NCBI RefSeq assembly: GCF_026571515.1
Contig: NW_026855648.1
Coordinates: 186,001-250,000, forward strand
Length of the DNA: 64,000 nucleotides
Source of the DNA: Ruditapes philippinarum
Taxonomy: Eukaryota
Direction of reading: 5' to 3'
The position numbers were made by a program, and so were the translations under genes. The first letter of the stretch is position 1. Each line of letters opens with the position of its first letter. Below, in pieces: positions 17,449 to 64,000 of this stretch. The notes below the pieces were generated by a model that did not search any database, was not told where the DNA came from, and saw nothing but the letters and a program-made list of their open reading frames with translations.

Positions 17449-17497
17449 ATATGTACTACATGTTACTTCAAGAATCCTATTAGCGTACATTGCTATA

Positions 17498-21849: not shown

Positions 21850-22050
21850 TTATAAAATAGAGAAAATAAGAATACCCAAAAGTAAGCCCAACACGGCAAA
21901 AATTAAAAGTGTTGCAAGCTTGATTCGACTGAACTTGTTCCTGGACGGTACCGTTAAGTTCAAACTATCCTCCACGCCCCTAGCACCGGTTTAAGCAGAT
22001 TCCAACATTTAAACATGAAATGGTAAGATTTTGAATTTAGAAACATCCGC
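21850..22050 (+). repeat. Copy of an old unclassified dispersed repeat (core CCCCTAGCACCGGTTTAAG)
   Basis: Related copies at ~9340-9480(-), 16300-16410(+), 26040-26331(-), 34365-34420(+, partial), 50075-50150(+), 51560-51740(-) and 56130-56230(+, partial). Confidence 0.75.
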
Positions 22051-23289
22051 AGATCGATGTGTTCATACGTAAATGACGTCAAGTCAATACATACGAATGG
22101 CAGTGCAGCATCATTTTTTTTCTGAGTCGCAGTTAAGACGTCACGGGTATGTGATGATAAGTCACATGTTACTATAAATATTAACAAATTTAACAAATAT
22201 TTCAACTTGTTATGAATGTCATATGACCGATTATGAGTTTTGTGACACGGGATCATAATCGGCCCGCTTAACATAAGCGCGTGAAAAATCGGTCAAATGT
22301 CAACGCAGTCTAGGCGGGGTTTATAGTAATGATGACTAGATTTTAAGACAAGTTTAACTGAAACGCAAATAATCCTTTATAAATAATGAATCTCAGGCTG
22401 AAGTCCTTGGGGCCATAATTTATTAAGCAAACCAATATTAACCTGCCGGTCCTACTCTGCCGTGTTTTAACCTCTTATTACGTACAGGTATCAGATTTTG
22501 TAAGGGTTCTTAAATCAGTTTAGAAAAGTCATGACCGGGCATAGATTTATACAATTAAATATTGTTTGCTGGCTATTAACACATACAACGGGTCCATAAT
22601 GATCACTTAATGTGTACTTTCAAAATATTGGAACTGTAATTATTGATTATGATTCCATACCTGAACTGTTCTATAAATGTTTATCAATATTTCAATTTCA
22701 CCATTCTTTCCTTTAACAATGGACTGACAATAATACAGTTCTAGTTTACGTAGCGCGTGATTGAACTTTTTGAACGGCTTTTATTATTTGGTTTATCGTC
22801 AGTCAATGGTTTGAGTATTCAAGAAAAAACACTAGTTATGTTAGCCCTGCAATTATGTTTTAATAATTACACGTAAATATGTTTGTGGAAAAAAACAACA
22901 ACAATAACAGCAGCAACAACAAAATGGAAAACAGTCTCTCACTTATTTGGAATAAATATTTCTTTTGCATTTGCATTGCAAATCTAAGGATATATCTCTA
23001 CAATGCCAGTTTATTACTGAAAATATATTTGAATACATCAGCAATATAAAGTGAATCGGGAATGCAGTTTACCGTTTGTTTACCAAAATGTGAGTTCAAC
23101 ATCTTATTTTGTGAATGAATAAATGACAGACTAAATTTCTTAATCGCTAATTGTTTTTCACGTGCATTTTTGGTACATCTGATAATTATTTATCATAAAA
23201 AGCCGAAGGTGACAGAAACCTGCAAACATTCAATTCCCCTTTAGCTTAAAAGTCATGATGAATATTGTGAAATATACTTGTTGTTAATT

Positions 23290-23319
23290 TTTATACGATG
23301 ATGATAAAATAAGTCAGTT
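23290..23319 (+). promoter_or_regulatory. Candidate TATA-like plus Inr (TCAGTT) core promoter of gene 3
   Basis: TTTATAC about 24 nt before TCAGTT (23314-23319). Same spacing is conserved before gene 5 (36098) and gene 9 (58054). Confidence 0.4.
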
Positions 23320-23349
23320 GAAACAATAAAAATCATGTTTTAAGCTGCG

Positions 23350-24618
23350 ATGAAGACCATAATTACAATGGATTACAAACTATTAATCGTGAACTTTTTA
23401 CTATTTCGACTTGAATACATTCACTGCTCAAATATTACACAGGTCGAAAGTTTATACACAAATTTATTCCAGAATTATAACAGGAAACTTTTTCCATTAA
23501 TAAATCACAACAATTCAATGGAAATAAATTTCACGATAGGAATCGTAAGTATAAATAATTTCGATGAGCTGTCTGGTGAAATAGAACTTACAATGTATTT
23601 CACTTTGCAATGGACTGATGAAAACTTGGTATGGACACCATCTCAATATGGCGGCAAATCGGTGTTGTTAGTAGCTCCAGAAGACATTTGGCGACCACAA
23701 CTTTATCTTCTACAATCATATGACACACTCCAGGAGATAAGTAACAATTCAGTCATGGCACGATTATTCTCGAATGGCCAAGTCATGTGGAATATTGGAA
23801 GTGTTTTGAAAATTGTTTGTTCTGTTGACGTGACGTATTTTCCTTTTGATACCCAGACATGTTTATTAATGGTTTCAGGCTGGGCCTACACAAACGAGGA
23901 AGTGTTGTTTTTCGTGAATGATGCAAAAGTAAGTGAAGATTATTTTTACAACAATAGTCAATGGATACTTCAGTCGGCAACGTCACAGAACTATTATGAT
24001 ATAATATCATCATTTCCACCGACGATTTTTGTGATACTACAACTACAAAGGCGAAGTGATTTTTTTGTAGTCTACATAATATTTCCAATGGTGTTCCTTG
24101 GCCTTATAAATAATCTTGTGTTTGTTATGCCTGCAAATTCTGGAGAGAGAACATCAGTTGCTATAACAACATTTTTGTCATTTATTGTTTTTATGCAAAT
24201 GATAAATTCGATTGTTCCGGAGAGTTCAGAACCTATGGCTTATATATATTATTATATTCTTTTTCTATTGGTTTATAGCTCACTCATTTTATTTTTGTGT
24301 ATATGCTCGTTATGTATCTATGACAAGGACACACCAGTTCCTCCGTCCATAGAAAAGATGATTTATTGTTTTCGATGTTGGTATTTCAAGAAAAACAAAG
24401 ACAAAGTAACACCTGAGAGGAGAGCATCCATTTTGTCTGAGCAAGTTGACGTAAAAAGCATTAACGAAAAGATATCATTCAGTCAACATGTTGATGATAC
24501 TCCTTTAGTGACTTGGATATTGGTTGGCAAGACATTTGATTTCTGCTGCTATGTTTTTCTGTTGTTGACATATTTGGCGGTAACCATTCATACGTTCGTA
24601 AAATTATATTTTAACTAG
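23350..24618 (+). CDS. Cys-loop LGIC subunit, nAChR-like, non-alpha, subfamily A; intronless (gene 3)
   Basis: 422 aa. Cys-loop CSVDVTYFPFDTQTC, loop B SGWAY, M2 GERTSVAITTFLSFIVFMQ. Confidence 0.95.
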   Translation: MKTIITMDYKLLIVNFLLFRLEYIHCSNITQVESLYTNLFQNYNRKLFPLINHNNSMEINFTIGIVSINNFDELSGEIELTMYFTLQWTDENLVWTPSQYGGKSVLLVAPEDIWRPQLYLLQSYDTLQEISNNSVMARLFSNGQVMWNIGSVLKIVCSVDVTYFPFDTQTCLLMVSGWAYTNEEVLFFVNDAKVSEDYFYNNSQWILQSATSQNYYDIISSFPPTIFVILQLQRRSDFFVVYIIFPMVFLGLINNLVFVMPANSGERTSVAITTFLSFIVFMQMINSIVPESSEPMAYIYYYILFLLVYSSLILFLCICSLCIYDKDTPVPPSIEKMIYCFRCWYFKKNKDKVTPERRASILSEQVDVKSINEKISFSQHVDDTPLVTWILVGKTFDFCCYVFLLLTYLAVTIHTFVKLYFN

Positions 24619-24644
24619 TTTCTGAATATCTTTTATATACATTT

Positions 24645-25553
24645 AATGGAGGATATTCGTTTGTTTGTGTGTAAGATGAAATTTTATTTCATCGAGTGGG
24701 CTTTAGAAACAGTATTCTCACGAGTGGCGTAAGCAAGAGCGAGAATACTGTTTTTAAAGTTCACGAGATGAAATAAAATTACATCTTACACAACAAACAA
24801 ACAAACTTTCTTTTTATTTGATGCTCAAAAACAAGTTTAAACGAAGTTTCCTTAATATTAACTTAAACATTGAAACTGGTAGTCTTTATTAGTCAAATTT
24901 CTCATAAAATACAAGAAGTCTTGGGCTGAAAAAAATAAGTTCGACAATCAACGTTAAATGGCTTGATATTATTCATTTTACTCAAAACAATATGAATGAT
25001 CTCTTCTTTTAATAATAAAAACAAACAATACAGTAAAAGAAAAAGTTACAATATCCGACCTTATTTCGTTACTTACGGCTAATTTATATTAGACCTGGCT
25101 TTGTGAAATGTAAGCGGTCGCCATTTTTTTCGGGCTGATGGCTGCCATTGCTTTTCAAGTTTTCACATTGCATTTGGCAGTTTTTGCTGGTAGGATACTT
25201 AAATATGCCCAAATGTCACCAAGAGCAGTTTTGCATGTGGAAGGAATTGCATTTTTCAGACTGAAAAGTAAGCAAAAAATTTAAAGACGATATTTGGTGA
25301 TTGGTAATTCGAATGAATTGATGAAAGTTTTCTTCTTTTCATTACTTTTGAAATTCAAGTTGTTTATCAAGTTAAGCTTTGCGTTTCTCAGAATTGTCAG
25401 CAAAAATAAAATTGAGGTACCACATTGGGAAAAACTTAAAAAAGTAGTTTCGTCATTGAAAAGTGTGAAATTATATTTTGATAATTTTCACTTTGAAATT
25501 TTAAAATATATTTTTCACGGATAAATCAGTAATCGACTGAAAAGCATAAAATA
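24645..25553. mobile_element. ~0.9-kb insertion in the gene 3 3' flank with a ~150-bp terminal palindrome (unclassified DNA element)
   Basis: Absent at the paralogous sites after genes 5 and 9. Arms tgtaagatgaaattttatttcatc..cagtattctc / gagaatactg..gatgaaataaaattacatcttaca around 24728. Confidence 0.7.
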
Positions 25554-28500
25554 ATATGAACTATTCTGATATAGATTCGCAATGCACTTATATCTGTATA
25601 TACATAGTGTTTGATATTACAATGATAAATGAAAATTACATTCATATTTCTTAATACAATAGTATAAATAGTACAGATTTATACAAATGTATATTTTTTA
25701 ATGTTTCTTCTGTGTATTATCAAATTTCAAAATGAAAAATGTTAAAATGCAAAATATAGATGTTAATAAACCTGAATATACAGCATGATTGTATATCGTT
25801 TTTTAAATATAAATTTTGCTTAATATGAGTTTAAGGAGATAAGGTGTTCAATAAACTCACATATTTTGTGTTGTTTAATAAATAAAAGTTTTGTCAAAGG
25901 AAAAATATAATATGCATGTGTATAGATAAAATATTTTCAACGCCAATTCTTATCTAAGAGCAATTTGCAAATGGAGAAGATAATTTGTCAAATGGAAAAC
26001 GCGAACATTCTCAATATTCTTTTTCTAATATTTATACTATTCTGTTTTTCTCTATTTTATAATAATAATTATACATAATTTATGGAATGGGACAAACGAG
26101 TCATATTGAAGATTTCATGATAACAGCCGTATGTGGATGTTTCTAAAATTCAAATTCCACCATTTTCATGGTCAATGTTGAGTTCTTCTTAAGCCGGTGC
26201 TAGTGGACATGGACGTTAACTTGCGCTTTCCAGTACCATTCATGAACAGGCGCAATCAAACCGAGCCTGCAACATTTTCAATTTTGTCTTTTTGAATTTT
26301 TTTTACCGATTCCGCTTTTCTCTATTTTATACCACATGTCTCTTTTCTCCAGCCATTATAATTCATCTTGTCTCCGATGAAAAGTCAAGCTAATAGTCAA
26401 AGTTGAAATTATTGATTTAAAAAAAATAAAGTTCCCAGGTATGTTAGTTAAAATTAGTGTGTGATTCAAAGCTCTGCAAAAGAAATATGTACATATGTTA
26501 AAAAAAGCCAACATAGATATAGAGAAAAAAATAAACATGGGGAAAACATTTAACCGTTTTTTAGTTTTTTAATGTTCCTTTTATTTAACAGTTAACAATT
26601 TCTTCATAAGTAAAGAATTGCGCATTTAGAAAGATGTATTTCCGTTTGAACGGTTAACTGCATGTCTTGATTTACCTGTCCTGCTTAATGATGAACTGAA
26701 ATTGCATTACATTGTTCAGAGGATAATCTTATTGCAATATTTCAGAGAATAACTGATATATATGAATCACTTTTTCTTTATTATTATTTATTATATTTTA
26801 TTAAAATTCACATACATGCATTCATTTCACATCAATATATAAACATATCGATATACTAGTTAAATTATATTATATTTTGTTTATTCATATCTATACGTAA
26901 TATTTATGTAGTTCTTAAATTTTACTTCATATGTTATAATTTGGAATCTTCCATGTATCATAATTCACTTATTACCACTATTAAGTATCATATTTATAAC
27001 TGTTGAAAATTTTTTATTTGAAACGAAATACAACATATATTTCACATTACATTATATTGAATGTCTATTAAATGTAAAGTAATCAAATTAGTAGAACTAT
27101 GAAAGGGTGGTTTTCATCAGAACATAATTGTTATAATTTACAACATTTGTACCATCAAAGTTCGTTTATGTTCTACGCGCTTTAATGAAGTTAAGACCAT
27201 TAGGGAAATATGATATTTGATAACATTAATTTTCAACAATATTTTAAATTATTTATATTATCAACACCAATCCCTATAGGAGAATCTGACGTTCATATTA
27301 GGGCATTCTATAGAAGGCATTCCCTATTGAATAAAGGTAAACACAACTTAAAATTAAAATATCATTTATGACATGCAGTAACATTACAGTTACTGGTTAA
27401 ATAATCTATTTTGGAATCTAAAGTTTACAAATTATTGATTAAATGCAGATCTGTGAAAACCAGAACATAAAAAACGATCATGATGACATGCAATAAATTA
27501 CATCAATCATAGGATCAAGAATAATGACTTGAATGAATGGCCTTAGAACAAATGTCACAATGTCAATGGTATCCCAAAAGAATTATTACATTAATGAAAG
27601 TTCTTTGAAAATGTATTGAATAAAACTGACGTGCACATGGTCTGTTTATGAAAATTAATATATTCAAACGAATCCGTCATTTAAAAAATCTTTTTGGATA
27701 TCCAATTCTTTGAAACTTAGAAACTTGACATACGAACTTCTCAAAATTTACATATAAGAATAGTGTATTAAAAGTCCTAAAAATAATATAGCACTCAAAG
27801 AGCACCCAAGTACGCAACCCCGTCACATCCTCCGAAAAAAAAAAATTAAACAAGGACTATTTCCAAAAAAACCACATGCAATAGCTACACATACGCCTAC
27901 TGCATTGTGGGACATTAATAATGTCACATACAACAAGACGATATGGTTGACAAAACTGACCAAAGCCACAGGGATATATATTATTCAGTACTTTTGTTCA
28001 TTATATATTTTTATTTCCATTGCTGGCACAACTTCTATATACATTTATGTGTATTGTATTTTATACAGAAATAGTATATTTGTATGTTAATAGTTACTTT
28101 GGATGTATTATGGCAGAAATGATGTTGAAATATTTATCATGTACAGGACTGCTGATTTATTTTACATGTATGCATTTTATGTTAATATGTGGCGTATTTG
28201 TAAATATGTTGTCTGGAATTTACTTGATTAAAATTGATATCCAATTAGCCTTCTACATATTCAATATAATATTTAATTACGCAGTACCAATGCAAGTGAT
28301 ATATTTAAGTAAAAAAAGAGTCCAAAGCAATTCAAACTATTGATTTATTAGAATACAATATTGCAAATCATTAACTTTTAGCGTGACTGATATATCTCGT
28401 TTAAACTTTAATATGAAATTAAAAACCAACAAGGGAGAGAAACCTAAAACGGATATTAAACTCATTCAACAATCATAATTTAGATATTATATTAAAAAAT

Positions 28501-28788
28501 AAAAAATTATAAACAACAACAACAACAGTAACAAAAACAACAAAAAAACCTTCTCTGATTGCTTTATTGCAATCACAAATAAAAAAATAAAATGATGATG
28601 TAGTGTTACGAAATTAAAAGTAACGCCTTGCAAAATGTTTCCCCTTTTCGGTAAGTTAAATGTCAATGATATCAATTGTTTCCTGTTTTATAATATGAAA
28701 TATTGACATTTTTTTCACCCACAAGAAGAAAAAAACACGAAAGGGTAAAGGTGCACGGCTGTTACCACTAGATATCACATTTGTACAT

Positions 28789-29045
28789 CCGCTTAGTTCA
28801 CTAGTAAGAATATCGGATTTGTAATAAAATGGTCGCTGGTTCGGGCGAGGTACTTTTTCTGTTCGACAGTTGATCTCAGAGTTTGAGACTAATAATACTC
28901 ATTTTATTCAGGGATCATGTGGGATTAGTAGTCGGGCACTTGCGAAGACATTGGTATTTGCTGGTAAGTTATCCAGGCAAAACGGTAAGGTAGATTGACA
29001 GCCGAGATATGACCAAAATGTTTGTCAACAAAACAAATAAACAAT
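28789..29045 (+). mobile_element. Degenerate tRNA-derived SINE (partial paralogous copy at ~40300-40470)
   Basis: A/B-box-like head (cttagttca...ggttcg) and tail gccgagatatgacc...aaacaaataaacaa. Confidence 0.55.
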
Positions 29046-29683
29046 CATATCAACAATTATTGCATTTATGTTCTATGTTTTTTAAGCATTTTATGAAAAA
29101 GCAATTTAAACTTTTCTAAACATATAAAAACAAACATTTCTTGATTAGAAACATGGATGTGAATGAGATCTAAATGTCTTGATTATCATAGGTAGGATCA
29201 ACATGTTAAAAGAAAATGCGATATATTAATATCGTACTAATTAATTGTACATAATACAGCAGTTTTATACAATAAATTAACGCTTTGTTAATTTATATAG
29301 TAAGCTTCATTGTGTTTGGAATTGTGTCGTGATTACAGTTGCAAGCAATGATGTATCAGCAGAAGCAAACATTTCGATTATACATTGCTTAAGCAACATT
29401 TTCATATAGAACGTTTAATTGAATATGATAAAATTCGTCTTTCTTTAATTATATATTTATATATAATTGACAAATTTATTGTTTAAAAGATTTAATGGCA
29501 TAATCATAAAATATTTCAATTAACAGAAACCAAATGATTTACATGGGATGAATTAATTGCAAAATGATAATTTTAATTATTGTATTTTCCATAGAACGAA
29601 ACATGACTATGATATAAGCAAATACTTTTTTCGATAAGTCTAACTATATTATTGTTTTTCTTTTTTAATTTATCAAATTTTCT

Positions 29684-30706
29684 ACAAGTTAAATGTTGAT
29701 GCTGCACATCAAAGACGCCGCCAAATGATGTGAACAGTCAATCAGCATTGAAAATCGTTCTCTATTACAGTTGAATATCCGAAGCACAAATCAATTTTTT
29801 CTCCATGTTCTTGGTATGTGCTCGTTGTTTAATAATAAAGATGCATATTTTTTGTGAAAAAGTAGAACCTAATGCATAAATTCACAAAATAATGCCAGGT
29901 CTGACATTCTTCAATGCTTGTCTGTTGCGACAAAGACTGAAACGTCTGGTCGAATCAAAATAAATTGGATAACAAATAAAATTGAAATAATTGGTATACT
30001 TAAAATAAATTCAAGACAATATGTGCCGAGAATATACCCATTTAAATATTGGTACGAATTGCATAATGTTCGAATGATTTTGAGGACAAACTGTTCTGCA
30101 GTGATCTCCCCTTACAGGCCGTAGCGTAACAGGTTTGTTGTACTTACTTAACGGTTGAGTGAGAACCGCCTCTCTGATAGTGGGCGTGGTTTAGGCTTTG
30201 TAACTTGTAATTTAATGATTCGACAAGTGATATTGATCAAAGTTGTCCTGGTTCCCTTCTACCCCGTAAACGAAGACTAAATGCTTGCATATGGAGCATA
30301 ATATCAAATTTATATGACAATTTAAGGCGGAGCCGAACTTCAACAGAGGCGAAACAAATGAGGCAAGTGACACTGCCTCAGTTGTCACCTCTCTCAACGG
30401 TTAAGTTTTAGAACGATCGACTACAGACTGGCTCATTGGCACGTGATTTATTATGTAATAAAATTAGATAATGATAAAAAGAGTATGATATTCAAACATG
30501 GCACTATCACTTCAGTTAAACGTTTATTCTAATCCCTTAAAGCTCTGTGACATGTTGTACATCATAAAAGCTATTTTTATTAGAAAATTTAAAAACAGTG
30601 TGATTTTGTTAAACAAAAAGAATACACACCATTAAGTCTAAAATTTTCCCCATGGCTGTATGGACAAATGCATATCTACTAGACACCGCTTGCAAGCGGC
30701 GTCTAA
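29684..30706 (-). mobile_element. Third Helentron/HINE-type element inserted in the 3' flank of gene 4
   Basis: Absent from the paralogous sites (~41340, ~63320). SubTIR AGACGCCGC (29713) / GCGGCGTCT (30696-30704), hairpin tgatg..catca, terminal ACTTGT on the minus strand. Confidence 0.7.
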
Positions 30707-30775
30707 TTACACTGCTATACATCAAATGGCCGTTTGACACGCGTTAAAATCAAATTCTTATTGTTTTATATGGTA

Positions 30776-32098
30776 TTATCGGAACGATTTCAAAATTTCT
30801 GCATTTGAATACAGACATATTATTGTAAAACCGGTAATTGTCCAATACACCAAAAAATTAAACCATGAACAGTAAATATCAAATGTTTCTCCGACATGTG
30901 TCCAAGTTATATCATCATCTTCCTTGGAGTCTTTCTTTGACTGATCTTTATCAGATTCAACTCGTTCACAATCAACATTAGTGATTTGACCATTGCTTAA
31001 ATCTGTTTCTACTACATTGATCACGCTTGTGGGCGTCTTGTCGTTACCAATACATATTTTTCCAATTCTGCACATCCTTTTAAAACACATACATCTTAAA
31101 CAATATACAAGATATTTAGTAACGATCGGTATTTTCCCTTTCCTGTCATATATTCGCATAGACACTATGCACATAAACATTATGTATGAACTATACAATA
31201 AAAGAAACATTAAATAGTAATAAATATATGCAATAGGAGACGAACTTTGTGGAACATTGTTGTTTACTATCTGCATGTAGACAGCAAATGACAAGAACGC
31301 TGTGATAGCCACCGATGTCCTCTCTCCAGACGAAGCTGGGATAGAAAACACAAGATTATTCATCCCTCCAAGAAACACTAATGGTGTTACTATATAAATT
31401 GCATAAAATTCACTTCGCCGCTTTAATGTGAAGTTGATTTTAATTCCAGATGGGCCATCGGGAATAGCAAAGTTGTAAACACTGCTATTTTCGTAAAACC
31501 ACTGACTGTTTTCAGTCCAATAGGTTGTAATAAGAGATGGTTTTAAAGAAAGGAACCTTACATCATCGCTCCTGACTGTAAAGGAAGTCAAAGTTATAGA
31601 ACAATATTGCCTATCAAAAGGGAAAAATGTCACATCAACTGGACAAGTGATTTTTGTAACAGAACCCATTGTCAACACAACTATACCTTCATGGTTGATC
31701 CTTAACATATCAGATCCTTGGCCGATTTCTTGCATATTATCAAACGATTCACGTACAAAAGTTTTTGGTCGCCATATGTCTTCCGGTGCTATAAGAAGAG
31801 ATTTTTTCCCGTCATAATCTTCAGGTAACCATGACATACGTTCTTCCGTCCATGTGAAGTTAAATATTAATGTCAACGCTAATTCACCGGACAGTTCATC
31901 AAATGTGTTGATACTACGTAAATAAACAAAAACACCAACTTCCGCCGCTTCACTTTGATTTTTGAGGGGCAATAGTTTGCTGTTGTAATCAATAAGGAGG
32001 CTTGAATACAGATTGTTTGCCTCTGTTGTGTTAAGGCATAAAGCTATTATGTCAGATTTTATGACAAATGCTAATAAAACGTGTAAATATTTTTGCAT
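30776..32098 (-). CDS. Cys-loop LGIC subunit, nAChR-like, non-alpha, subfamily B; intronless CDS (gene 4)
   Basis: 440 aa. Cys-loop CPVDVTFFPFDRQYC, M2 GERTSVAITAFLSF. Confidence 0.95.
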   Translation of the reverse strand: MQKYLHVLLAFVIKSDIIALCLNTTEANNLYSSLLIDYNSKLLPLKNQSEAAEVGVFVYLRSINTFDELSGELALTLIFNFTWTEERMSWLPEDYDGKKSLLIAPEDIWRPKTFVRESFDNMQEIGQGSDMLRINHEGIVVLTMGSVTKITCPVDVTFFPFDRQYCSITLTSFTVRSDDVRFLSLKPSLITTYWTENSQWFYENSSVYNFAIPDGPSGIKINFTLKRRSEFYAIYIVTPLVFLGGMNNLVFSIPASSGERTSVAITAFLSFAVYMQIVNNNVPQSSSPIAYIYYYLMFLLLYSSYIMFMCIVSMRIYDRKGKIPIVTKYLVYCLRCMCFKRMCRIGKICIGNDKTPTSVINVVETDLSNGQITNVDCERVESDKDQSKKDSKEDDDITWTHVGETFDIYCSWFNFLVYWTITGFTIICLYSNAEILKSFR

Positions 32099-32122
32099 TT
32101 TCGAATGTATTCATTTAAAACC

Positions 32123-32938
32123 CTGAAAAATAAAGCATATAATTTAATTTATTACTAAGGCTATCCAACGCAAATCTTTGAAGGTAAAACTTCCGCTATA
32201 TGGCATTGAATATAGCATAGATGTATGTTGCTCAAATTTGAATGTTTTTAAATGTACAATAGACACCTTTTTACTATACACAGAGCATAATTGTTACGTT
32301 TCAATCCCTACTCATTATAGGTAAACACAGTATGAATTCATCATGTCATTAAAAAACTGGCAGTTTCTTTTTAAAGAATAAGGACCACATTAACTTGACC
32401 AGTTGCAGGGAAGGGAATGCAGCTCCCAAACATAGCTTTTGCTCTTTCTTTTTCAAATTAGAAATATTTAGTAAGAATGTCCTTCATTTCAATACATTCC
32501 TGCAATAAAAGTATTTTACCCAAAGACGAGCTTAGTATATATTTTATTATAAATATACTTAACGTTTTATTTCCGTCTGCATGTAATTCAAATGATGAAT
32601 TTAATTATAAAATTATAATAAATTTGCGTAAATCAGACTAAATTAGCATTGCAGTTTTGTTAAACTGAGTCAAAGATGTTCAGAGTTACATCAATAATAA
32701 AGTGTTATTATAAAGGAATTTTATTAAACGAAAATTAACAAATGAATTTTGTAATCTTAATTTATAGTTTAAGAAAACACGAAATGAATAATCACAGTTA
32801 TATCGTTTTCAATTAAATTAATATGCTAAGACTTAAGCATGATTTTGTAGCACGGTTAACAACCTTTGATTATTAATCTTCAAGATATAAATCCATTTAA
32901 TACAACCATAACTATTAAATAAAAAATCGTATACTCAC
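32123..32938 (-). other. Predicted 5' UTR intron of gene 4
   Basis: Minus-strand donor GAG|GTGAGT at 32938 and acceptor tttttcAG at 32123. Both sites are conserved in gene 6 (43309 / 42758). Confidence 0.65.
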
Positions 32939-52574: not shown

Positions 52575-52845
52575 TGGACATGTTGTAATTTAACAAATAA
52601 CGTCGTTACCTGTCAATACTTTTTAATGATACTTTCCATAGAAACATAAATCTTTTTAAATAACAACTACAAAAACCACCTTAAAATCTTAACACATGAA
52701 TAGCAGATAAGTAATAACTCCTTAAAAATAACCAGTGCAATACATGTATTTTTAAAGCAAAGTTGTAAAATCACAGTAACAAAGAAATGATTATCAGCAT
52801 CATTTGCCTTAATATAACGATGAATCATTTTAGCATTTTAACAGT

Positions 52846-54111
52846 TTAAAGTTTGCGGTTATAATACAAATTGCTGAATGTATTGGCTGTCATAACAATA
52901 AATATAAAATACAGAATTAGGAAACAATACAAATCGAATGTTTTGCCAACCGTTTTCCATGTCACAGAGGGAGTTTCATTTTCTTTTTCTGTATTTTCAT
53001 TGATCTTGTTATGTTTCATCTCAATCTCTTCTGAAACAAATGACATTTTCCGTTCAGGCTTAACAACAGCAATTTTCTTTCGTTTAATCCACCAGCAACG
53101 AAGAATGTACACCAATTTTACAATTGCCGACGGAACGGGAGCATCCCTGTCATGTATACGTAATGAAAGTATACATAGAAAGAGGATAACTGAGCTGTAT
53201 ATCAATAGAAAAAGGACATAAAAATAAATGTAAGCCATTGGGTCAGAACTCTGGGAACAGTCGAATTTATCATTTGCATAAAAACAATGAATGACAAAAA
53301 TGTGGTTATAGCCACAGATGTTCTTTCCCCAGAATTCGCAGGCATAATGAACACCAGGTTATTCATACAACTTAAAAAACACCATCGGAACAATTATGTA
53401 AACTACAAAGAAATCACTTCTTCTTTTCAATGAAATTTTAATGTTTAATGATGGTGGAAAGCTTGGGGCGACGACAGCACTTCTATTATCCGCAGTTGCA
53501 GACGATATTATCCATTGACTATTCTGGCTTAAAAAATCTTTGTTTATCATACTCTCTGTTGTATAAAACAACACTTCATCGATTGTATACGCCCATCCTG
53601 AAATCGTCACGTAACAATCTTGCGTGTCAAAGGGAAAGTAAGTGACATCAACCGAGCAAACTAGTTTTAAAACATTCCCTGGGTTCCATATAATTTTACC
53701 GCTTGAAAGCAATCGCATCAGCATTGATACATTGGTAATTTCTTGAATTCTGTCAAAAGATTGTAGTACAAACAACTGTGGGTGCCACACATCTTCCGGT
53801 GGAATAAGAAGATTCGATTTCCCGCCAAATTCAGACGGTGTCCAGCTTAGTCTTTCATCACTCCATTGCATGTAAAATAACATGGTAATTTCTATCTCAC
53901 CAGACAATTCATCAAACTTATTGATACTCACAATCCCTATTGTACAAGCAATTTTTACAGTGTCATTATGATTTAACAGAGGAAAAAGTTTCCTATTGTA
54001 GTTCTTGAACAAGTTGTCGTGTAAACTTCTAACCTGTGTTGAATTTGAGCAGAAGATGAATTCCAACCGAATAAACATAATACTGACGATTAGGATTTTG
54101 GTGTTCATCAT
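52846..54111 (-). pseudogene. Divergent subfamily A Cys-loop LGIC gene (gene 8), broken by two 1-nt homopolymer indels; pseudogene or assembly error
   Basis: ORFs 53359-54138, 53202-53393 and 52846-53238 join into one full subunit. ATG at 54111, +1 T in the run at 53374-53379, -1 near 53253-53255. Confidence 0.85.
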
Positions 54112-54161
54112 GATTGCTGGTACAAAATATATGTTCAACGTTATAATCAGATGTCACATAT

Positions 54162-55620
54162 CTGGAAAAGAAAGAATAGATACATCGATTCAATATGAAC
54201 ACATTTAATACAAACTACAAACATTTTATCATCAATTAGAATTATGAAATATCCAGACCACACTTCTATTTCCTCAAGCGCCTGACGGTATGGCTATTTA
54301 TGGTCTTGTTAAACATTTCACATGGTCATTTTTAATTATTTAAGTATGCGTTATTGTCCGTAGAGCTCTTTGAAATGTTTACAATATAATAAAGGAAAAC
54401 CACGGGGGACTATTCACAAACAAAACTTTATTCTTTCCCATTACTGTTATTAAAATTGACAAATGTGTTTGTAAATGTTTGTTTTATATGACAAATCTTA
54501 ATTTGCACCATTGTACAAGTTCAGTATATCAATACAATCTAAATGTGGTTTTGAGTTATGGAAAAAAATGTTTATATTTCAATTTATATGAATGGTTGAA
54601 GATAGTTTGCAAACAAAAAGGATAACATCACCTAAATGGTTTTGTAATTGAAAGGCCAAATTGCACCATAACAACACAGAATTGCATGCTCCAGTACACT
54701 ACAAACGCAAAATGAAAAGGCTTTTTATAGGATGATAATTCCATAACAACAAGAGAGATATTTTGAGCATGTGCGTTATGCGTAGGGCAAAAAGCGAAGT
54801 CGATGTGATGAGCGGAAGAATAGTTATTTTAGATTAAACAATTTTTTATAAAAGTTATGATCTTACTCAATTTTATAGAATGTATATAATGCAATGAAAT
54901 GGTTAGAAAGGGTAGTTTTCTGTTTGTTTGTTTGTTTGTTTGTTTGTTTTTTTCATTCCCATAAAAGCTTCAATTATGGGCGATCGATTCTAAAATAAGA
55001 ACTTTCATCTTTAATTAAATCTATTGACTTTTTGTCCTTCGTGCATTGCGCATGCGCAAAAAATAATGCATCGCCTTGAATTTACATGGCAAAGAAGATC
55101 GTTGTAAAATGGTATGTAGATATGGCAGACAAAATAAAACCAAGGATTAAGATCTGATATTGACACATAAATGATTAATAATATTTATATTGATACAAAG
55201 CATTGTTAAGTAATATATTTATATCAAATTACACATATCAGACAGAGAAAGGGACCTGTCTACGAATGCACCAAACTCCAAACAGAATTTCCATATTGCT
55301 CCAAAATACGAAATAGATATAAATCAAACCCACGAGATTACCAATTCATTCATGTGTCCAAACATGAATTTGATTGAATATATGCGATGTGCACATTGTC
55401 TACATACAATGTATATCTAATTATAACTACATGTATAGCTATAACAAAATACAGTTTAAAATATTTTGTCAGATTTTTTTGTCTTAGAATATATAAATGA
55501 TTGATATTCTGTGATATTGATATTTTCATATATCTTACCTGTGCATATATTCACAGATAATACACGTAAATAAAACGTTCTATCTCAAAATAGTAGAAGT
55601 TAACTGTCCTTTTATATAAA
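54162..55620 (-). promoter_or_regulatory. Predicted TATA box, non-coding first exon and 5' UTR intron of gene 8
   Basis: Minus-strand TATATAAAAG ~55610-55619, donor CAG|GTAAGA at 55538, acceptor tctttcttttccAG at 54162. Confidence 0.55.
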
Positions 55621-58083
55621 CATTTTTTCACATTATTATCCCTCATCTCAAAAATTAAACTTCTTTGTCATTATATCTATAATTCATCGAAAACTAATTA
55701 AGTAATTATCATCATTCAGTCTATTTAATCTACTCGAACTAATTGTTTCTCGTGAACCTATCACGTGATCTGTTTCTCTTAGTATCTATTTATTTAAAGT
55801 CAGTATTAAATCGAACAAACGGCCATGCATAGTGATAGCTTGAAATTTGTACATCAATAATCTCTCCGATAATTTCTGGAAAGTCCGATAACATTTCAAG
55901 GAGTCTGTGGCTTATACAACATAGCACTGTTAAATTCTATGATTTATATCATTAAAATCCTTTAGAAACTAACAAAATGTAAAACAATGTTTAATTAATT
56001 TCTTTAATGAAAAAAAAACAACAACAAAAAACTTGAATAATTCATTGATGTCGTCATGTGGGTGATACCACGACAGTCCAATCTAATGAATTATTGTTAA
56101 TAATTACTGTACTGTGAACACAATATCAAATTGAAAAAGCGGACTCCCTAAAGAATACTCAAACCGGCAAAATTGTAAATGTTGAAGGCTTTGTTTGAAT
56201 GAACCTGTTCATTCTGTTGATAGTAATGGTAACCTCAACTAGTGTCGTATGATGAATCATGAACGTGACCCGAGTAGAGCTAGAACATACGATCCCTCGG
56301 TTGAGAGACAGAGGGCCACAGCCCACCTTAATTTAACTAACAAAAATAATTAGTATTGATTCATTCTAGGACAACTTCAAAATTATCACAAGAACTCAAG
56401 GACATTTGAAAAAGTCGGGTATAGATTTGTTAGCCGGGGCTGTATGTTTACAACTTTGCATTATAATTAGGTAATAATGTATGGCAAGTATGAAGACCAG
56501 AAATAATCAGGTCAATACGTGCGCATTGGCAAATAATTTAGAAATTTTACTAAAAACTACCAGATTTTTAGCAACAGGCGATGAAAAAATGGACTATGAA
56601 TTTTTACACATGAAACAATATGTAAGGCAAGCTTAATCATTAAAGTGTAATATTTAGCACCTAAAATTCACTGTTTAAAGATAATGATTATCATATTTGA
56701 CGAGTGTTTTTCTAATATATACAAATGTTATTCGACGAACTCCGAAGGCGGGGTTTATGGTAATGATACACTGATCAGTTTAACTGAAACGCAAAGAATC
56801 CCCCCTCCAGCTCCCAATAAAAATACAAAAATCCATAGCAGTTTGATAGAAACAAACTTGTAACTTGGTTCTACTAGTCTTTCGTACCATAAATGGAAAA
56901 AAAACTCTGTGTCTGTTCTCTGGGTTTTTAACGACATAAAAATTTAAGTTTTTGAAAAAAAATGTCTATAATTTCTATTTCGTTTAGCTTAAACTAAAAT
57001 AAATAATTGAAATAATAATAAATAATGAATCTCGGGCTGAAGAACACGGGGCCATTATCTGATTAGCAAAACAATTTTCACCGGTCCTACTCTGCCGTGT
57101 TTTAACCTCTTATAACGTCTACATGTGAGATTTTGTAAGGGTTCTTAATTAAATCAATTTTGAACATGGCGACACTACCTATTAACGCATTAAAACGGTC
57201 CCTAATGATCACTCAATGTGTGCTCTCAACATTATGTTTATTGATCGTGATTCCATATCTAAACTTTTCTATTAATGTTTATCAATATTACAATTGGACT
57301 GATGGACTAACAATAATTCAGTTCTTGTTTTTGTAGCACGTGATTGAAATATTTGAACAGGTATTATTATATATTCCATAGCCAGTCATTGCTTCTATTG
57401 AGTATCCCAGAAAAAACATTTAATTCTGAAAGCCTCGTGAATTAGTTGGACTTTTTTAATCAATTCACTTAAACATATTTGAAAAAAAGTTAAGAATTCA
57501 GAGGATATATATAACAATGTCATTTTTATTTCTGAAAATATTTTAAAACAACAAAAGTAGTATACGAACTGAATCGGAAATATAGTTAACTGTTAGTTGT
57601 CGACATCTGAATGTATGCCTTGTTTTGTGCATAATAAAATGTCGGACTATACAGTATTTCATATATCGTTCCTTGCTTTACACGTGTATTTTGTGAAAGC
57701 GTTTCCGGATTATAATACATGTGAAAGCGTGACAATGTAACTATGAAAAGATATTCATGATAGATCTAGATCTTTTATCATTTGTCAATGACGTGAACCA
57801 GAACCCGAAGATATAAATTACAGTTTAGCGTCTTCTTGAACAGATAAGTACCAAAGTTTGTCTATCAGACGACCATGGAAGTATTCAAGTTCTACATCAG
57901 TTTTTAATATTTTGGTACATCTGGTTATTATTTATCATACTACGCCAAATGTGACAGAAACCTGTAAATATTTAATTCTCTTTAAACTTAAAAGTCGTTT
58001 GAAATATTGTGAAATATATTTGTTGTACATTTATACGATGGCGATACAATAAGTCAGTTGAAACAATAGATAACATAATTAAT

Positions 58084-59344
58084 ATGGATTCCAAGCTATT
58101 AATCGTGACTTTTTTACTTTTCAGCTTGAATACATTCACTGCTCAAATATGACACAGGTCGAAGGTTAATACACAAACTTGTTCCAGAACTATAACAAGA
58201 AACTTTTTCCATTGATGAATCACAACAATTCAATGGAAATAAATGTCACGGTAGGTATTAGAAGTATAAATAATTTCGATGAGCTGTCTGGCGAAATTGA
58301 ACTTACAATGTATTTCACTTTACAATGGACTGATGAAAACTTGATATGGACACCTTCTCAATATGGTGGCAAGTCGGTGTTGTTAGTAGCTTCAGAAGAC
58401 ATTTGGCGACCACAACTTTATCTTCTACAATCATATGACACACTCCAGGAGATAACGAATGTATCGTTGATGGCACGGTTGTTGTCGAATGGCCTCGTCA
58501 TGTGGAATATTGGAAGTGTTTTGAAAAGTGTTTGTTCTGTTGACGTGACGTATTTTCCTTTTGATACCCTGACATGTGTATTAATGGTTTCAGGCTGGGC
58601 TTACACAAACGACGAAGTGTTACTTATCGTCAATAATGCTAAAGTAAATGAAGATTCTTTTTCCAACAATAGTCAATGGATACTTCAGTCGGCAACGTCA
58701 CAGAACAATTATGATATAATATCATCATTTCCCCCGACGATTTTTGTGATACTTAAACTAAAAAGACGAAGTGATTTATTTGTAGTGTACATAATATTTC
58801 CAATGGTGTTCTTTGGCCTTATAAATAATCTTGTGTTTGTTATGCCTGCGAATTCTGGAGAGAGGACATCAGTTGCTATAACAGCATTTTTGTCGTTTAT
58901 TGTTTTTATGCAAATGATAAATTCGATTGTTCCTGAGAGTTCAGAACCTATGGCTTATATATATATTATTATATACTTTTTCTATTGGTTTATAGCTCAC
59001 TCATTTTATTTCTATGTATATGCTCGTTATGTATCTATGACAAGGACACACCAGTTCCTCAGTCCATAGAAAAGATGATTTATTGTTTTCGATGTTGGTA
59101 TTTCAAGAGAAACAAAGACAAAGTAACACCTGTGAGGAAAGCATCCATTTTGTCTGAGCAAGTTGACGTTAAAAGCACGAACGAAAAGTTATCATTCAGT
59201 CAAAATGATGAGGATTCTCCTTTAATGACTTGGGTAACGGTTGGTAAGACATTTGATTCCTGCTGCTATGTTCTTTTGTTGATGACATATTTGGCGGTGA
59301 CCATTCACACATTCGTAAAATTGTATTTTAACTACAGTTGCTGA
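58084..59344 (+). pseudogene. Subfamily A Cys-loop LGIC pseudogene (gene 9)
   Basis: ATG 58084, -1 T at ~58118-58121, nonsense TTA>TAA at 58167-58169, +2 (AT) slippage at ~58955-58967. Confidence 0.9.
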
Positions 59345-62300
59345 ATATTTTTACTTACATTGATATGAAATGTTCTGACACAGTTACTCGATGCGGTAAT
59401 TTCTCTATATGCGTATTATAAGACATAACAATGAAATTCACATTTCTTTGTAATAATGATAATATATAATTATGGCAAACAAATTTATACAAATGTATAT
59501 CTTAAAATGTTTCTTGTGTAAAACGTCAAATTTCAAAATGAAAATGTGAAAAAGCGATGTAAATAAAACTAGATATGTGAAATGATTGTATTTGTTTTTT
59601 TTTTCTTAAATATATAGTGCTTAATATAATGTGTTTAAGAAGTTTAGATGTTTCATAGACATTACATTTTCGTGTTGTTTTCATAAATGAAAATTATGTA
59701 ACAAGAAAGATATATTATACCAGTATACAGATAAAATATTTTCAACGTCAATCTTGTGTTAACATAAATTTACACAGGAACAATATGCAAATGGAGAAGA
59801 GAAATTTGTCAAATGGAAAGCTCGAGGATTCTCAAAATGTTTTAACTATTTACAATAATGATACGAACGAATGACACTAAATTGTATCCAACGTCAAACC
59901 CATAAGGCATGTCTTTTTTCTCATGCCCTTATAATTTATCTTGTCCCCGAAGGAAAAGTCAAGCTAAATGTCAGAGCTGAAATCATTTATTTAAAACAAT
60001 AAAGTTCTCAGGTTTGTTAATTAACATTATTGTGTGATTTAGAGCTCTTTGCAAAAGAAATATGTACATATGTTCAAAAATGCCTACATAGATATGGAGA
60101 GAAAAAAATAAACATGGGAAAAACATTTAATTTTTGTTATGTTTTTAAGGTTCTTTTTATTTAAAAGTTAAAATAAGGTTACAATTTCTTCCTAAGCTAA
60201 GCTTGCGCATTTAGAAAGATGTATTTCCTTTTCAACGGTTAACTGCATGTCTTAATTAACCTGTCCTGCTTACTTGTCGTAATGAACTGAAATTGCATTC
60301 CTGTGGTCAGCGGTCAATCTTATTGCAATATTTCAGGGAATAATTGATATATATGAATCACGTTTTTTTTATCATTATTATTTATTATCATTTTATGGCG
60401 TGCTTACATAAATTTCACATACATACATTCATCTCACTTCAATACGAAAACATATTAATATATTCATTATAATATATTATACTTTGTGTATAATGAATAT
60501 TAACATGTGATGTTTTATCTAAGTTTTTAAATTTAGCTTAATATGTCATATTTTGAAATCTTCCATGCATCAATGAATCACTTCAATGTATCATATTTAT
60601 AACTCTTGAAACATTTGATTTGAAATAGATTATAACAGATATTTCCTATTACATTACATTGAATGGTTATTATTAAAATGTCAAGCAATTAAATTACTAG
60701 AGCTATGGGTGAATTGATTCTACAAGAGGATAATAGTTATCATTTACAACATTTTGTACCATCAAAGCTCGTTAATATTCTAAGCGCTGTAATAAAGTGA
60801 ATATCATTAGGGAATATGATATTGATTACATATTTATTTTCTTTTTCAAAACAATATTTTAGATTATTTAAATTATCATAAAGCTAAAACTTAATCCCTC
60901 TGGTAGAATCAGGCTTTCATATTGGGACAATGTATAGACGTCATTCCCTATTGATTAAACGTAAACAGAATTTTAAATGAACATAATTAACATTATGACA
61001 TTCAGTTAAATTACAGTTACTGGTTAAATAATATTTTTTGGAATCTAAAATTTACAAATTATTGATGATGCAGATCTGAGACCACTAGAACAATAAAACG
61101 TTATGATGACATTATAAAAGCATTTTGCAATAAATTACATCAACCATAGGATCAAGAATAATGCCTTGCATGAATGGCGTTAGAACAAATATCACAATGT
61201 CATTGATATCCCATAAGAATTATAACATTAATGAAAGTTCTTTGAAAATGTATTGAATAATACTGACGTGCACATGGTCTGTTAATGACAATAAATATAT
61301 TCAATAAGTCATTTAAAATGACTTTTCGGATGTTCAATTTTTTCAAACATAGAAACATGTCAAACGAGCTTCTCAAAATTTATATATTATAAGTATGAAA
61401 AGGCTTAAAAATAATATAAGACTCAAAGAGCACCCAAGTACGCAACCCCGTCACATCCTCCAAAAAAAAATAAAAATGAAAAAAAAAATGAAAAAAGATA
61501 AAAAGAAAAATAATAAAACAGAGACTATTTCCAAAAACCACATGCAATAGCTAGACATACGCCTACTGCATTGTGGGACATTAGTACCGTCACATACAAC
61601 AAGACAATATGGTTGACAAAACAGACCAAAGCCACAGGGATATATATCATTCAGTACTTTTTGTTCATTTTATATTTTTATTTCCATTGCTGGCACAACC
61701 TATATATACAATTTTGTGTGTTGTATTTATTACAGAAAGAGTGTATTTGTATGTTAATATTTACATGGGATGGAATATGGCAGAAAAAATATTGAAATAT
61801 CTATTATGTACAAAACTGCTGATATTGTTTTACATGTATGCATTTTATATTAATATGTTGCTTATTTGTAAATATGTTGTCCTCGTGGGTCTATGACCTG
61901 CTGGCATTTACTTGAATAAAATCATACTCAATTAGCCTTCTATATACATAATTAATTAGCCTTCTACATATTTAATCCATATTCAATTACGCAGTACCAA
62001 TGCCAGGTACAATGTATATATTTAAGTAAAAAAAAGAGTTCAAACAAATTCGAACTATTGATTTATTAGAATATAATATTGCAAATCATTAACTTTTAGC
62101 GTGACTGATATATCTCGTTTTAACTTAAATATGAAAATAAAGACCAACAAGGGAGAAAAACTAAACCCGGACCATGAAATCATTCAACAATCATAATTCA
62201 AATATTATATTCAAAATCGAAAAAATAAAAAAACACAACAACAACAAAAACAAAAACAACAAAACTTCTGTAACAGCTGCATTGATCATTTAGATTGCAA

Positions 62301-63390
62301 TTACAAATAAAAAATAAAATAAAAAGGGGATGTATAGTGTTACGAAATCAAAAGAAACGCCTTGTGAAATGTTTCCCCTTTACGGTTAGTAAAATGTCAA
62401 TGATATCAATTGTTTACATTTTATAATATGAAATAATAATATATTATTAATATTGACATTTTTTCAACCTGGAGAAGAAAACAAAAAACACAAAAAGGAA
62501 AAAGTGCATGTCTGTTACCACCAATAATAGCTAATTAGATGCATCTTTTGGCTAAGCTCAATAGGCCAATACGGAAACAGAATATTTCGGCCCCAAACTA
62601 AATCGGCCCGAATCGAAAAATCGACCATTGGACGTGTCGGCCATTTTCCGCGAGACGTTTCGGCCCTACTATAGGCTAAAGCTTGATTGTATAAACAAAC
62701 AATTATGACACTTTAATTCCTTAATTAATTAAGAAAGTTTATTACAGTTATTCCTTAGAAAACATAATCTATTGAACTTTATTATCGTAGGTAGGATAAA
62801 CATGTTAACTGATTATACCATTTATTTTTATCATAGTAATTGATTGTGCATGTATAATACAACAGTTGTATACAGTATCAATTTAGGTTTTGTTAATTTA
62901 TATAGTATGTTTCTTTGTGTTAGGAATTGTGTCTTGGTAACTGTTGCAAGCAATGCTATATCAGCAGCAGCAAACAGGTCATTTATACATTGCTTAAGTA
63001 ACATTGTCATATAAAAAGTTTAATTGAATTGGATTCAATTTATCTTTCTTATATAATAATAAATTTTCATATAACTGACAAAAATATTATTTTACAGATT
63101 TTATGAGATAATCTTAAATGTTTCTTCTTACAGAAAGCAAATGATCATCATGTGATGAACTTAATGTAAAATGTAAAATGATAAATAATCTCTAATCTTA
63201 TTCATCAAACAAAATATGTCTATGATCACTATGATATTTGCCTTTTTGATATTAGCAAATAATTTTCTTTTGATTAGTCTAAACATAGTAGAATTTTTTT
63301 TTAATTTATCAAATTCTCTATTAAACTACCATACATCAAATTGTCATTAAACACGCGGCAAAATCAAAATGTTATTAGTTTTAAATGATA

Positions 63391-64000
63391 TTATCGGAAT
63401 GATTTCAAAATTTCTGCATTTGAATACAGACATATTATTGTAAAACCGGTAATTGTCCAATACCCCAAACAATTAAACCATGAACAGTAGGTATCAAATG
63501 TTTCTCCGACATTTGTCCAAGTTAGATCATCATCTTCCTTGGAGCCTTCCTTTAACTGATCTTTATCAGATTCAACTCGTTCACAATCAACATTAGTGTT
63601 TTGACCATTGCTTAAATCTGTTTCTACTACATTGATCACTCTTGTGGGCGTCTTGTCGTTACCAATACATATTTTTCCAATTTTGCACATCCTTTTAAAA
63701 CACATACATCTTAAACAATATACAAGATATTTAGTAACGACCGGTATTTTCCCTTTCCTGTCATATATTCGCATAGACACTATGCACATAAACATTATGT
63801 ATGAACTATACAATAAAAGAAACATTAAATAGTAATAAATATATGCAATAGGAGATGAACTTTGTGGAACATTGTTGTTTACTATCTGCATGTAGACTGC
63901 AAATGATAAGAACGCTGTGATAGCGACCGATGTCCTCTCTCCAGACGAAGCTGGCATAGTAAACACCAGATTATTCATCCCTCCAAGAAACACTAATGGT
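63391..64000 (-). CDS. Cys-loop LGIC subunit, subfamily B, 3' part only (gene 10; continues beyond the window)
   Basis: Open frame to the window edge. M1-M4 nearly identical to genes 4 and 6. Confidence 0.9.
   Translation of the reverse strand, partial: PLVFLGGMNNLVFTMPASSGERTSVAITAFLSFAVYMQIVNNNVPQSSSPIAYIYYYLMFLLLYSSYIMFMCIVSMRIYDRKGKIPVVTKYLVYCLRCMCFKRMCKIGKICIGNDKTPTRVINVVETDLSNGQNTNVDCERVESDKDQLKEGSKEDDDLTWTNVGETFDTYCSWFNCLGYWTITGFTIICLYSNAEILKSFR

What the first reader, a model, noticed from the sequence alone, without database searches (positions are those of the whole stretch)
21850..64000. A(+)/B(-) two-gene cassette duplicated as a unit, suggesting a heteromeric receptor pair
Seen: genes 3/4, 5/6 and 9/10 are convergent A/B pairs sharing non-coding landmarks. 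CCGGTCCTACTCTGCCGTGTTTTAACC occurs at ~22446, 35118 and 57081. AGAGCACCCAAGTACGCAACCCCGTCACATCCTCC occurs at ~27799, 39462 and 61427. The spacer after gene 7 (49440-50050) is an older, diverged copy of the same spacer. Inference: A keeps the principal-face loop B Trp while B has lost it, so they could play alpha-like and beta-like roles. Combinatorial A x B pentamers would multiply specificities. Co-duplication may also be purely mechanical.
Basis: partly seen in the sequence, partly recalled or inferred. Interest (0 to 1): 0.7.

Follow-up and report, generated by a model that had tools for sequence, protein, structure and literature searches.

The report
Clam ion-channel genes copied in blocks
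This stretch of Manila clam DNA holds a run of twelve acetylcholine-receptor-like channel genes built mostly by repeating a four-gene block, so the A/B pairing is most likely a by-product of copying, although the two old subunit types could still mix in channels predicted not to respond to acetylcholine.

Summary
The landmarks and the three convergent A+/B- pairs are real. The locus is a 12-gene array of intronless nAChR-like genes in Ruditapes philippinarum, all on one contig.

The repeated unit is not a two-gene cassette. It is a 20-22 kb block, A+ B- A'+ D-, present twice (35.1-56.4 kb and 57.1-76.8 kb). Genes 3/4 are a third copy, cut inside its A' gene. A' was copied with about 2 kb of flank and no B. 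A and B genealogies disagree. Landmark 1 lies in a dispersed repeat.

The alpha/beta reading fails as stated. A lacks the loop C cysteine pair and the loop A Tyr. B lacks the loop D Trp. A beta-4 reference keeps the loop B Trp. The Trp split is old: 23 of 27 A-clade relatives have it, against 5 of 32 others.

Best reading: mechanical block duplication of orphan cation-channel subunits. Heteromers are plausible but unsupported by the layout. Such arrays are published for bivalves (PMC6896357).

The parts
13590..14867 (+). Gene 1 (C): intronless nAChR-like ORF of the narrow B clade, Val at loop B; no convergent partner
17408..18838 (+). Gene 2 (B2): intronless B-type ORF, 64-65% identical to B4/6/10, Leu at loop B; same strand as gene 3
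22379..34223 (.). Block copy 1 (truncated): A3, spacer, B4, then the start of an A'-type gene
22446..22478 (+). Landmark 1 (copies at 35118, 57081), inside a ~100-bp dispersed repeat upstream of A
23344..24618 (+). Gene 3 (A3): intact; loop B Trp, loop D Tyr, no loop C cysteine pair
27797..27833 (+). Landmark 2 (copies at 39460, 61425): locus-specific GC-rich 37-mer followed by an A-tract; absent from the gene-7 spacer
30776..32110 (-). Gene 4 (B4): intact; Phe at loop B, Ile at loop D
33880..34223 (+). Upstream region and first ~30 codons (with a stop) of a deleted A'-type gene; 89% identical to the start of gene 11
35098..56366 (.). Block copy 2: A5+ B6- A7+ D8-
36114..37388 (+). Gene 5 (A5): intact, loop B Trp
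41412..42749 (-). Gene 6 (B6): intact, Phe at loop B
46850..48130 (+). Gene 7 (A'): intact A-type gene with Arg in place of the loop B Trp
48136..50067 (+). Older copy of the A-proximal half of the A/B spacer, ending before landmark 2
50336..50473 (-). 5' fragment of a D-type gene (copy at 70796-70879, beyond the window)
52846..54153 (-). Gene 8 (D8): A-clade paralogue with loop B Trp; two 1-base frameshifts in homopolymers in this assembly, not seen in contigs of 4 of 4 other runs
56366..56772 (.). Junction of block copies 2 and 3, occupied by a high-copy repeat
57051..64000 (.). Block copy 3 (continues to 76845 in window numbering): A9+ B10- A11+ D12-
58071..59344 (+). Gene 9 (A9): loop B Trp; frame broken twice in this assembly (near 58118 and 58956); status in the population unresolved
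63391..64000 (-). 3' part of gene 10 (B10; whole ORF 63391-64725, intact)

Best explanation
The region is a tandem array of twelve intronless nAChR-like channel-subunit genes in which a 20-22 kb four-gene block (A+ B- A'+ D-) is present twice plus one truncated copy, so the repeated A/B pairing most likely arose mechanically, by unequal crossing-over of the whole block, rather than by selection on a matched pair. Shown: the block structure, the truncated first copy, an older copy of A without B, discordant A and B genealogies, purifying selection on both types, and loss of the canonical acetylcholine-site residues. Inferred: copies were later reshuffled by gene conversion or recombination; the proteins form cation-selective pentamers (Glu at M2 -1' in all) gated by something other than acetylcholine, probably an external or tissue chemical, by analogy with other orphan lophotrochozoan subunits; the Trp-bearing A and D subunits would supply the aromatic side of a ligand site and could work without B. 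Optional mixing with Trp-less B or A' subunits is about 40% likely in my judgement, but the gene layout gives no evidence for it.
For: Copies 2 and 3 are homologous over 35098-56366 vs 57051-76845, covering four genes. Copy 1 ends in an A'-type gene remnant. A' carries only the A-proximal ~2 kb of spacer and faces D, an A-clade gene 57-59% identical to A and 39-41% to B. Synonymous distances are not matched between partners: A3-A9 0.192+/-0.030 vs B4-B10 0.065+/-0.016; A3-A5 0.198 vs B4-B6 0.109. Informative sites favour A5+A9 (16 vs 5 and 4) but B4+B10 (12 vs 5 and 5), and the B-proximal spacer is a mosaic. Landmark 1 is in a dispersed repeat and a repeat sits at the copy 2/3 junction. dN/dS is 0.26-0.37 for 13 of 14 close pairs and 0.59 for B4-B10. 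No loop C cysteine pair in any of the 12 window proteins, and no loop A Tyr. Intronless tandem arrays of up to 12 nAChR genes grown by stepwise duplication are published for bivalves (PMC6896357).
Against: All 9 neighbouring pairs from gene 3 to gene 12 alternate in strand, whereas 26 of 33 neighbouring hits on 18 other contigs are same-strand; this may reflect only a few ancestral events. In 5 of 5 convergent pairs exactly one member has the loop B Trp (two independent origins). The Trp-bearing clade is old (30 rows, 99.4/98, including Mercenaria, Mya, Dreissena, Mactra). Mercenaria's three A-type and one B-type proteins share one 120.5 Mb sequence. Contigs of A, B and D types occur together in two probable RNA runs. 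Linked subunits that co-assemble have precedent (des-2/deg-3; CHRNB3-CHRNA6). The informative-site counts are small and the B outgroup (B2) is saturated.
Confidence: 0.7

Rival explanations
1. A and B are preferred or obligate partners in one heteropentamer. Trp-bearing subunits (A, D) give the principal face, Trp-less ones (B, A') are structural partners, and linkage or a shared spacer element keeps them co-expressed, so selection kept them together.
For: One Trp-bearing and one Trp-less gene in 5 of 5 convergent pairs. Old split with both types kept in Mercenaria on one chromosome-sized sequence. Locus-specific conserved 37-mer mid-spacer. Both types in the same probable RNA runs. Precedents in PMC8841521 and PMC4931601.
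Against: Unit is four genes; A copied without B; B-type genes 1 and 2 have no convergent partner; genealogies discordant. Convergent genes share no promoter or transcript. The Trp is absent from 27 of 32 relatives outside the A clade, so its loss is not special to B. B lacks the loop D Trp. Mercenaria hits are 3 A-type to 1 B-type (lower bounds).
Confidence: 0.2
2. Copies 2 and 3 are two alleles of one block that the assembler laid in tandem, so the true array is shorter.
For: D8/D12 are 97.0% and A7/A11 95.6% identical. In run X1 the D coding contig (depth 6.6) is about twice the flank contigs (3-4), which a single diploid locus would also give (the tool warns depth is no copy number). No listed contig bridges the whole junction repeat (1177 pieces were not shown).
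Against: A5/A9 differ by 6.2% and B6/B10 by 5.2%, dS 0.13-0.15; several non-coding windows are 54-81% identical. Contigs run from the copy-2 tail into the junction repeat (X2, X4) and from the repeat into the copy-3 head (X1, X4, X11), and copy 3's tail does not continue into that repeat.
Confidence: 0.1

Closest known systems
Expanded intronless bivalve nAChR-like tandem arrays (Jiao et al. 2019, PMC6896357; abstract, Background and Results read)
   Same: Single-exon coding regions, tandem arrays of up to 12 genes, lineage-specific stepwise duplication, most members lacking the alpha-type cysteines and full acetylcholine site.
   Different: That paper covers oyster, pearl oyster, scallop and mussels, not venerid clams. 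The parts read describe no multi-gene block repeat or strict strand alternation.
Cephalopod chemotactile receptors, CRs (passages of PMC11526382, PMC13174522, PMC10338036; the primary papers were not held)
   Same: nAChR-derived, intronless, altered acetylcholine site; CRs form homo- and heteropentamers.
   Different: Clade membership not tested; the 60 best solved-structure hits shown are nAChRs and 5-HT3, no CR. No sensory expression or ligand is known here.
C. elegans des-2/deg-3 (passages of PMC8841521 and PMC8747062)
   Same: Neighbouring nAChR-like genes; the known pair forms a heteromer in sensory endings.
   Different: des-2/deg-3 are co-transcribed in an operon and both are alpha-type. 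A and B lie on opposite strands and neither is alpha-type.
Vertebrate CHRNB3-CHRNA6 (passage of PMC4931601)
   Same: Adjacent subunit genes; there they are co-expressed, with one accessory subunit.
   Different: Single-copy, intron-rich genes with a true alpha subunit and proven co-assembly; no such data exist here.
Alpo4 of Alvinella pompejana (passages of PMC10338036)
   Same: Orphan lophotrochozoan nAChR-like subunit with loop B Trp and no loop C cysteine pair; did not respond to acetylcholine.
   Different: Alpo4 keeps loop C tyrosines and the loop D Trp; the clam proteins have lost more of the site.

Membership tests
Cys-loop pentameric ligand-gated channel, nAChR-like | Neur_chan_LBD and Neur_chan_memb domains with a C-x13-C loop | tested here: met
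   7 of 7 intact window ORFs pass both Pfam cut-offs; Cys-loop present in all 12 proteins
Cation-selective Cys-loop channel | Glu at M2 -1', no Pro insertion | tested here: met
   11 of 11 window proteins with M2 in frame and 59 of 59 relatives; a motif only, no currents
nAChR alpha subunit (for A) | Vicinal cysteines in loop C (definition in PMC8841521) | tested here: not met
   Absent from A3, A5, A7, A9, A11, D8, D12; present in two reference alpha-10-like proteins
nAChR alpha subunit (for A) | Loop A Tyr | tested here: not met
   Leu in A and D; Tyr in 0 of 59 relatives
nAChR alpha subunit (for A) | Loop B Trp | tested here: met
   A3, A5, A9, D8, D12 have it; A7 and A11 have Arg
nAChR beta subunit (for B) | Loop D Trp on the complementary face | tested here: not met
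   Ile in B2/4/6/10; the lungfish beta-4 reference has Trp at both loop D and loop B
Bivalve intronless nAChR-like expansion | Single-exon coding region in a tandem array in a bivalve | tested here: met
   Uninterrupted 424-476 codon ORFs, 12 genes in 61 kb; species named by the record of P0005 on a contig of the same length
Two-gene cassette duplicated as a unit | Duplication boundaries enclose only A and B | tested here: not met
   Boundaries enclose four genes; copy 1 includes an A' remnant
Two-gene cassette duplicated as a unit | Matching genealogy and divergence of A and B | tested here: not met
   A5+A9 vs B4+B10; dS 0.19 vs 0.065; few informative sites
Cephalopod CR / CR-like clade | Phylogenetic membership | not tested
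   No CR sequence came from any tool; two searches returned nAChR-type neighbours
Cephalopod CR / CR-like clade | Sensory-epithelium expression and gating by hydrophobic ligands | not testable with these tools
   No tissue-resolved RNA data or physiology
des-2/deg-3-type linked heteromer | Co-transcription from one operon | tested here: not met
   A and B are on opposite strands
des-2/deg-3-type linked heteromer | Function requires both subunits | not testable with these tools
   Needs co-expression electrophysiology

The most novel reading that the evidence does not exclude
The array is a clam counterpart of cephalopod chemotactile receptors with a built-in pairing rule: each convergent pair joins a Trp-bearing ligand subunit to a Trp-less partner (A with B, and independently D with an A' that swapped its Trp for Arg), and block duplication plus conversion yields a combinatorial set of non-acetylcholine sensing channels.
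Probability: 0.15. Interest if true: 0.7.

Novelty: new member of a known kind. Interest (0 to 1): 0.3.

Why it matters
Bivalves carry 99-217 nAChR-like genes (PMC6896357), and none of the papers I saw gives ligands or assembly rules for them. This compact locus holds all close members of its subfamily in the genome and has natural Trp/Phe/Arg contrasts at one binding-site position. That makes it a convenient test set for whether such subunits work alone or mix, and whether they sense non-acetylcholine chemicals. As it stands, the gene layout is ordinary segmental duplication and does not show a receptor pair.

Tried and rejected
Cross-species linkage: a metagenome scan gave 80 loci. The 11 closest (39-46% identity) lie on 2-8 kb contigs; none of the 20 of 80 loci checked held two separate complete genes. 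Adjacency and orientation in relatives therefore remain untested; protein records give only shared sequence lengths.

Expression: no indexed holder is on record as RNA ('no RNA holder listed'). Runs X23 and X24 are labelled RNA-Seq, but their reads are unstranded and break at GATC sites with GATC-starting loose ends. That looks like proximity-ligation DNA, so they were rejected as expression evidence. X15 had no cover over gene 7; a contig gap proves nothing.

Copy number from contig depth: ambiguous, not used.

Tree: the 24-row 'B clade' of the quick tree (timed out, careful search unfinished) was not recovered in the second tree (66 rows, 8 dropped as broken, near-duplicate or long-branch). 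Only an 8-row B clade (100/100) and the 30-row A clade hold. Whether the A/D and B2/B4 splits postdate Mercenaria differs between trees or was not printed, so the convergent layout is undated.

Atlas search added only generic Cys-loop clusters. Complex prediction and structure prediction were not run: homologous subunits would be expected to dock by likeness to solved pentamers, and the controls cannot tell heteromer from homomer.

Three primary papers were not held. Searches for this clam's nAChR family listed no paper on this locus; subscription papers and supplements were not seen.
Full report
What is there. The window lies at G000:C4135:186001-250000 in a 1.41 Gb genome. A relative found on a contig of the same length is named Ruditapes philippinarum (P0005). 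Seven uninterrupted ORFs of 424-476 codons pass both Pfam Cys-loop domains. With two frame-broken genes, one gene crossing the window end and two genes beyond it, the array has 12 genes between 13.6 and 74.2 kb in window numbering: C1+, B2+, A3+, B4-, A5+, B6-, A7+, D8-, A9+, B10-, A11+, D12-. No other contig holds a hit above 36% identity among the 99 and 13 matches listed, so the subfamily appears confined to this locus.

The observation. Both landmarks occur exactly three times at the stated coordinates. Landmark 1 is conserved beyond the local background (0 of 2000 shuffles) but lies within a ~100-bp dispersed repeat: 38 of 41 genome matches are on other contigs. Landmark 2 is unique to the locus. 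Its 37-nt run is unusual against the whole spacer (P=0.0035) but not clearly against the well-conserved centre (P=0.059). The spacer after gene 7 is a colinear older copy, but only of the A-proximal half; it ends near 50070, before landmark 2.

The duplicated unit. With 70 kb of flanking DNA added, homology between 35098-56366 and 57051-76845 covers A, B, A' and D. Most 500-column windows are 85-98% identical, with a few at 54-83%. Genes 3/4 are a third copy: after B4 comes the upstream region and first ~30 codons of an A'-type gene, 89% identical to the start of gene 11. So the unit is a four-gene block and the first copy lost its right half (inference). A' itself arose earlier from A (dS about 0.29), taking 2 kb of flank and no B. 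It faces D, which belongs to the A clade. A high-copy repeat occupies the copy 2/3 junction. Unequal crossing-over is the inferred mechanism.

A and B did not stay matched. A3-A9 dS is 0.192+/-0.030 while B4-B10 is 0.065+/-0.016; A3-A5 is 0.198 and B4-B6 0.109. Informative sites group A5+A9 (16 vs 5 and 4) but B4+B10 (12 vs 5 and 5, with a saturated outgroup). The spacer near B's 3' end switches affinity between copies. Conversion or recombination between copies is the inferred cause. It argues against fixed pair-wise partners but not against interchangeable ones. dN/dS is 0.26-0.37 in 13 of 14 close pairs and 0.59 for B4-B10. Amino-acid change per site is higher in the extracellular domain than in M1-M3 in 9 of 9 pairs, only marginally so in A7-A11, A5-A9 and A5-A7. 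No positive selection was tested.

Binding site and pore. A3/A5/A9 and D keep the loop B Trp. B4/6/10 have Phe, B2 Leu, C1 Val, and A7/A11 Arg. None of the 12 has the loop C cysteine pair that defines alpha subunits (definition in PMC8841521 passages) or the loop A Tyr. At the loop D Trp position A3/5/9/11 have Tyr, A7 His, B Ile and D Leu. The lungfish beta-4 reference keeps Trp at both loop B and loop D. So A is not alpha and B is not beta by the usual marks; B has lost aromatic residues on both faces. Among relatives, the loop B Trp is present in 23 of 27 A-clade proteins and in 5 of 32 others (0 of 19 and 5 of 13 in the two groups of the quick tree). The A clade is well supported (30 rows, 99.4/98) and includes Mercenaria, Mya, Dreissena and Mactra; a narrow B clade of 8 rows (100/100) includes Mercenaria. 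The contrast is therefore old, but lacking the Trp is the family's common state, not a mark of partnership with A. M2 has Glu at -1', Leu at 9', Val at 13' and Gln at 16' in all 11 window proteins where it is in frame, which predicts cation selectivity (residue numbering is recalled convention).

Evidence in favour of pairing. Strand alternation in 9 of 9 neighbours from gene 3 to 12 is unusual: among 55 of the 86 other hits (those on contigs with two or more), 26 of 33 neighbours under 30 kb apart are same-strand, 4 convergent and 3 divergent. Every convergent pair has exactly one Trp-bearing member, from two independent origins. Mercenaria's three A-type and one B-type records share one 120.5 Mb sequence and Mactra's two share a 37.5 Mb one, while Mya's lie on different ones. 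Adjacency could not be read. Runs X15 and X17 (RNA is the tool's guess) have contigs over A-, B- and D-type coding regions, with little cover of most of the A/B spacer. That is weak, bulk-level evidence.

Assembly checks. In contigs of 4 of 4 runs from four studies, both D8 frameshifts are absent at full listed depth. One X1 contig matches D8 at all but one of 668 bases apart from the indel, although D8 and D12 differ by 3%. D8 is probably intact and the breaks probably homopolymer errors; X1 is nearly identical to the assembly and may not be independent. For A9, the first break is absent in all of X11's depth and about three quarters of X2's and X4's, which paralogues could explain; the second is unresolved. 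Contigs enter the junction repeat from both sides but none listed spans it.

How it most likely works. Shown: block duplication, conserved intact subunits, altered binding site. Inferred: orphan cation channels gated by a non-acetylcholine chemical, as for CRs and as proposed for Alpo4 (passages). Jiao et al. report highest nAChR expression in bivalve gill. A and D would carry the aromatic ligand face; B and A' may be optional modifiers. I put 0.7 on mechanical co-duplication, 0.2 on a selected A+B heteromer and 0.1 on an allelic artefact.

Novelty. Intronless tandem nAChR-like arrays of up to 12 genes are published for bivalves (PMC6896357, abstract to start of Discussion read). Linked subunits that co-assemble are known (des-2/deg-3; CHRNB3-CHRNA6). 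Searches listed no paper on this locus. The scan's earlier notes showed nothing relevant (8 of 65 fitting notes shown; none by sequence). Verdict: a new member of a known kind, interest 0.3.

Noticed in passing
window 52846-54153 (gene 8): Two compensating 1-base frameshifts in homopolymers are absent from contigs of 4 of 4 other runs, so the gene is probably intact and mis-assembled here.
   Followed up: yes
window 46850-48130 and L001 (gene 11): A' genes replaced the loop B Trp with Arg while their convergent partner D keeps it, repeating the one-Trp-per-pair pattern independently of B.
   Followed up: partly
M2 helix of all array genes: Gln at 16' instead of the Leu of the three reference nAChRs, and Ser/Asn at 20'; relatives often have Glu, Gln, Gly or Ser at 16'. 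May alter gating or permeability.
   Followed up: no
window 27797-27833, 39460, 61425: Locus-specific GC-rich 37-mer followed by an A-tract, mid-spacer; candidate regulatory element or old retroposed fragment.
   Followed up: partly
window 50336-50473 and 70796-70879 (L002): 5' fragment of a further D-type gene in the A'/D spacer of both block copies.
   Followed up: partly
runs X23, X24: Labelled RNA-Seq but reads break at GATC sites with GATC-starting loose ends, as in proximity-ligation DNA libraries.
   Followed up: yes
proteins P0068 and P0092: A gene-1-like and a B-like protein from another source share the same longest contig length (6875), hinting that the C/B neighbourhood is conserved elsewhere.
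   Followed up: no
window 10323-10985: Integrase remnant (rve and Integrase_H2C2 below cut-off), probably a decayed LTR retrotransposon.
   Followed up: partly
window 3305-4502 and L004 (about 94.6-95.6 kb in window numbering): A ~162-bp tandem repeat array with an inverted copy at 92-96% identity about 90 kb away, flanking the gene array on both sides.
   Followed up: no
L005 (about 5.9 to 3.6 kb left of the window): A 2.3-kb array of a 27-bp unit giving long repetitive open frames.
   Followed up: no
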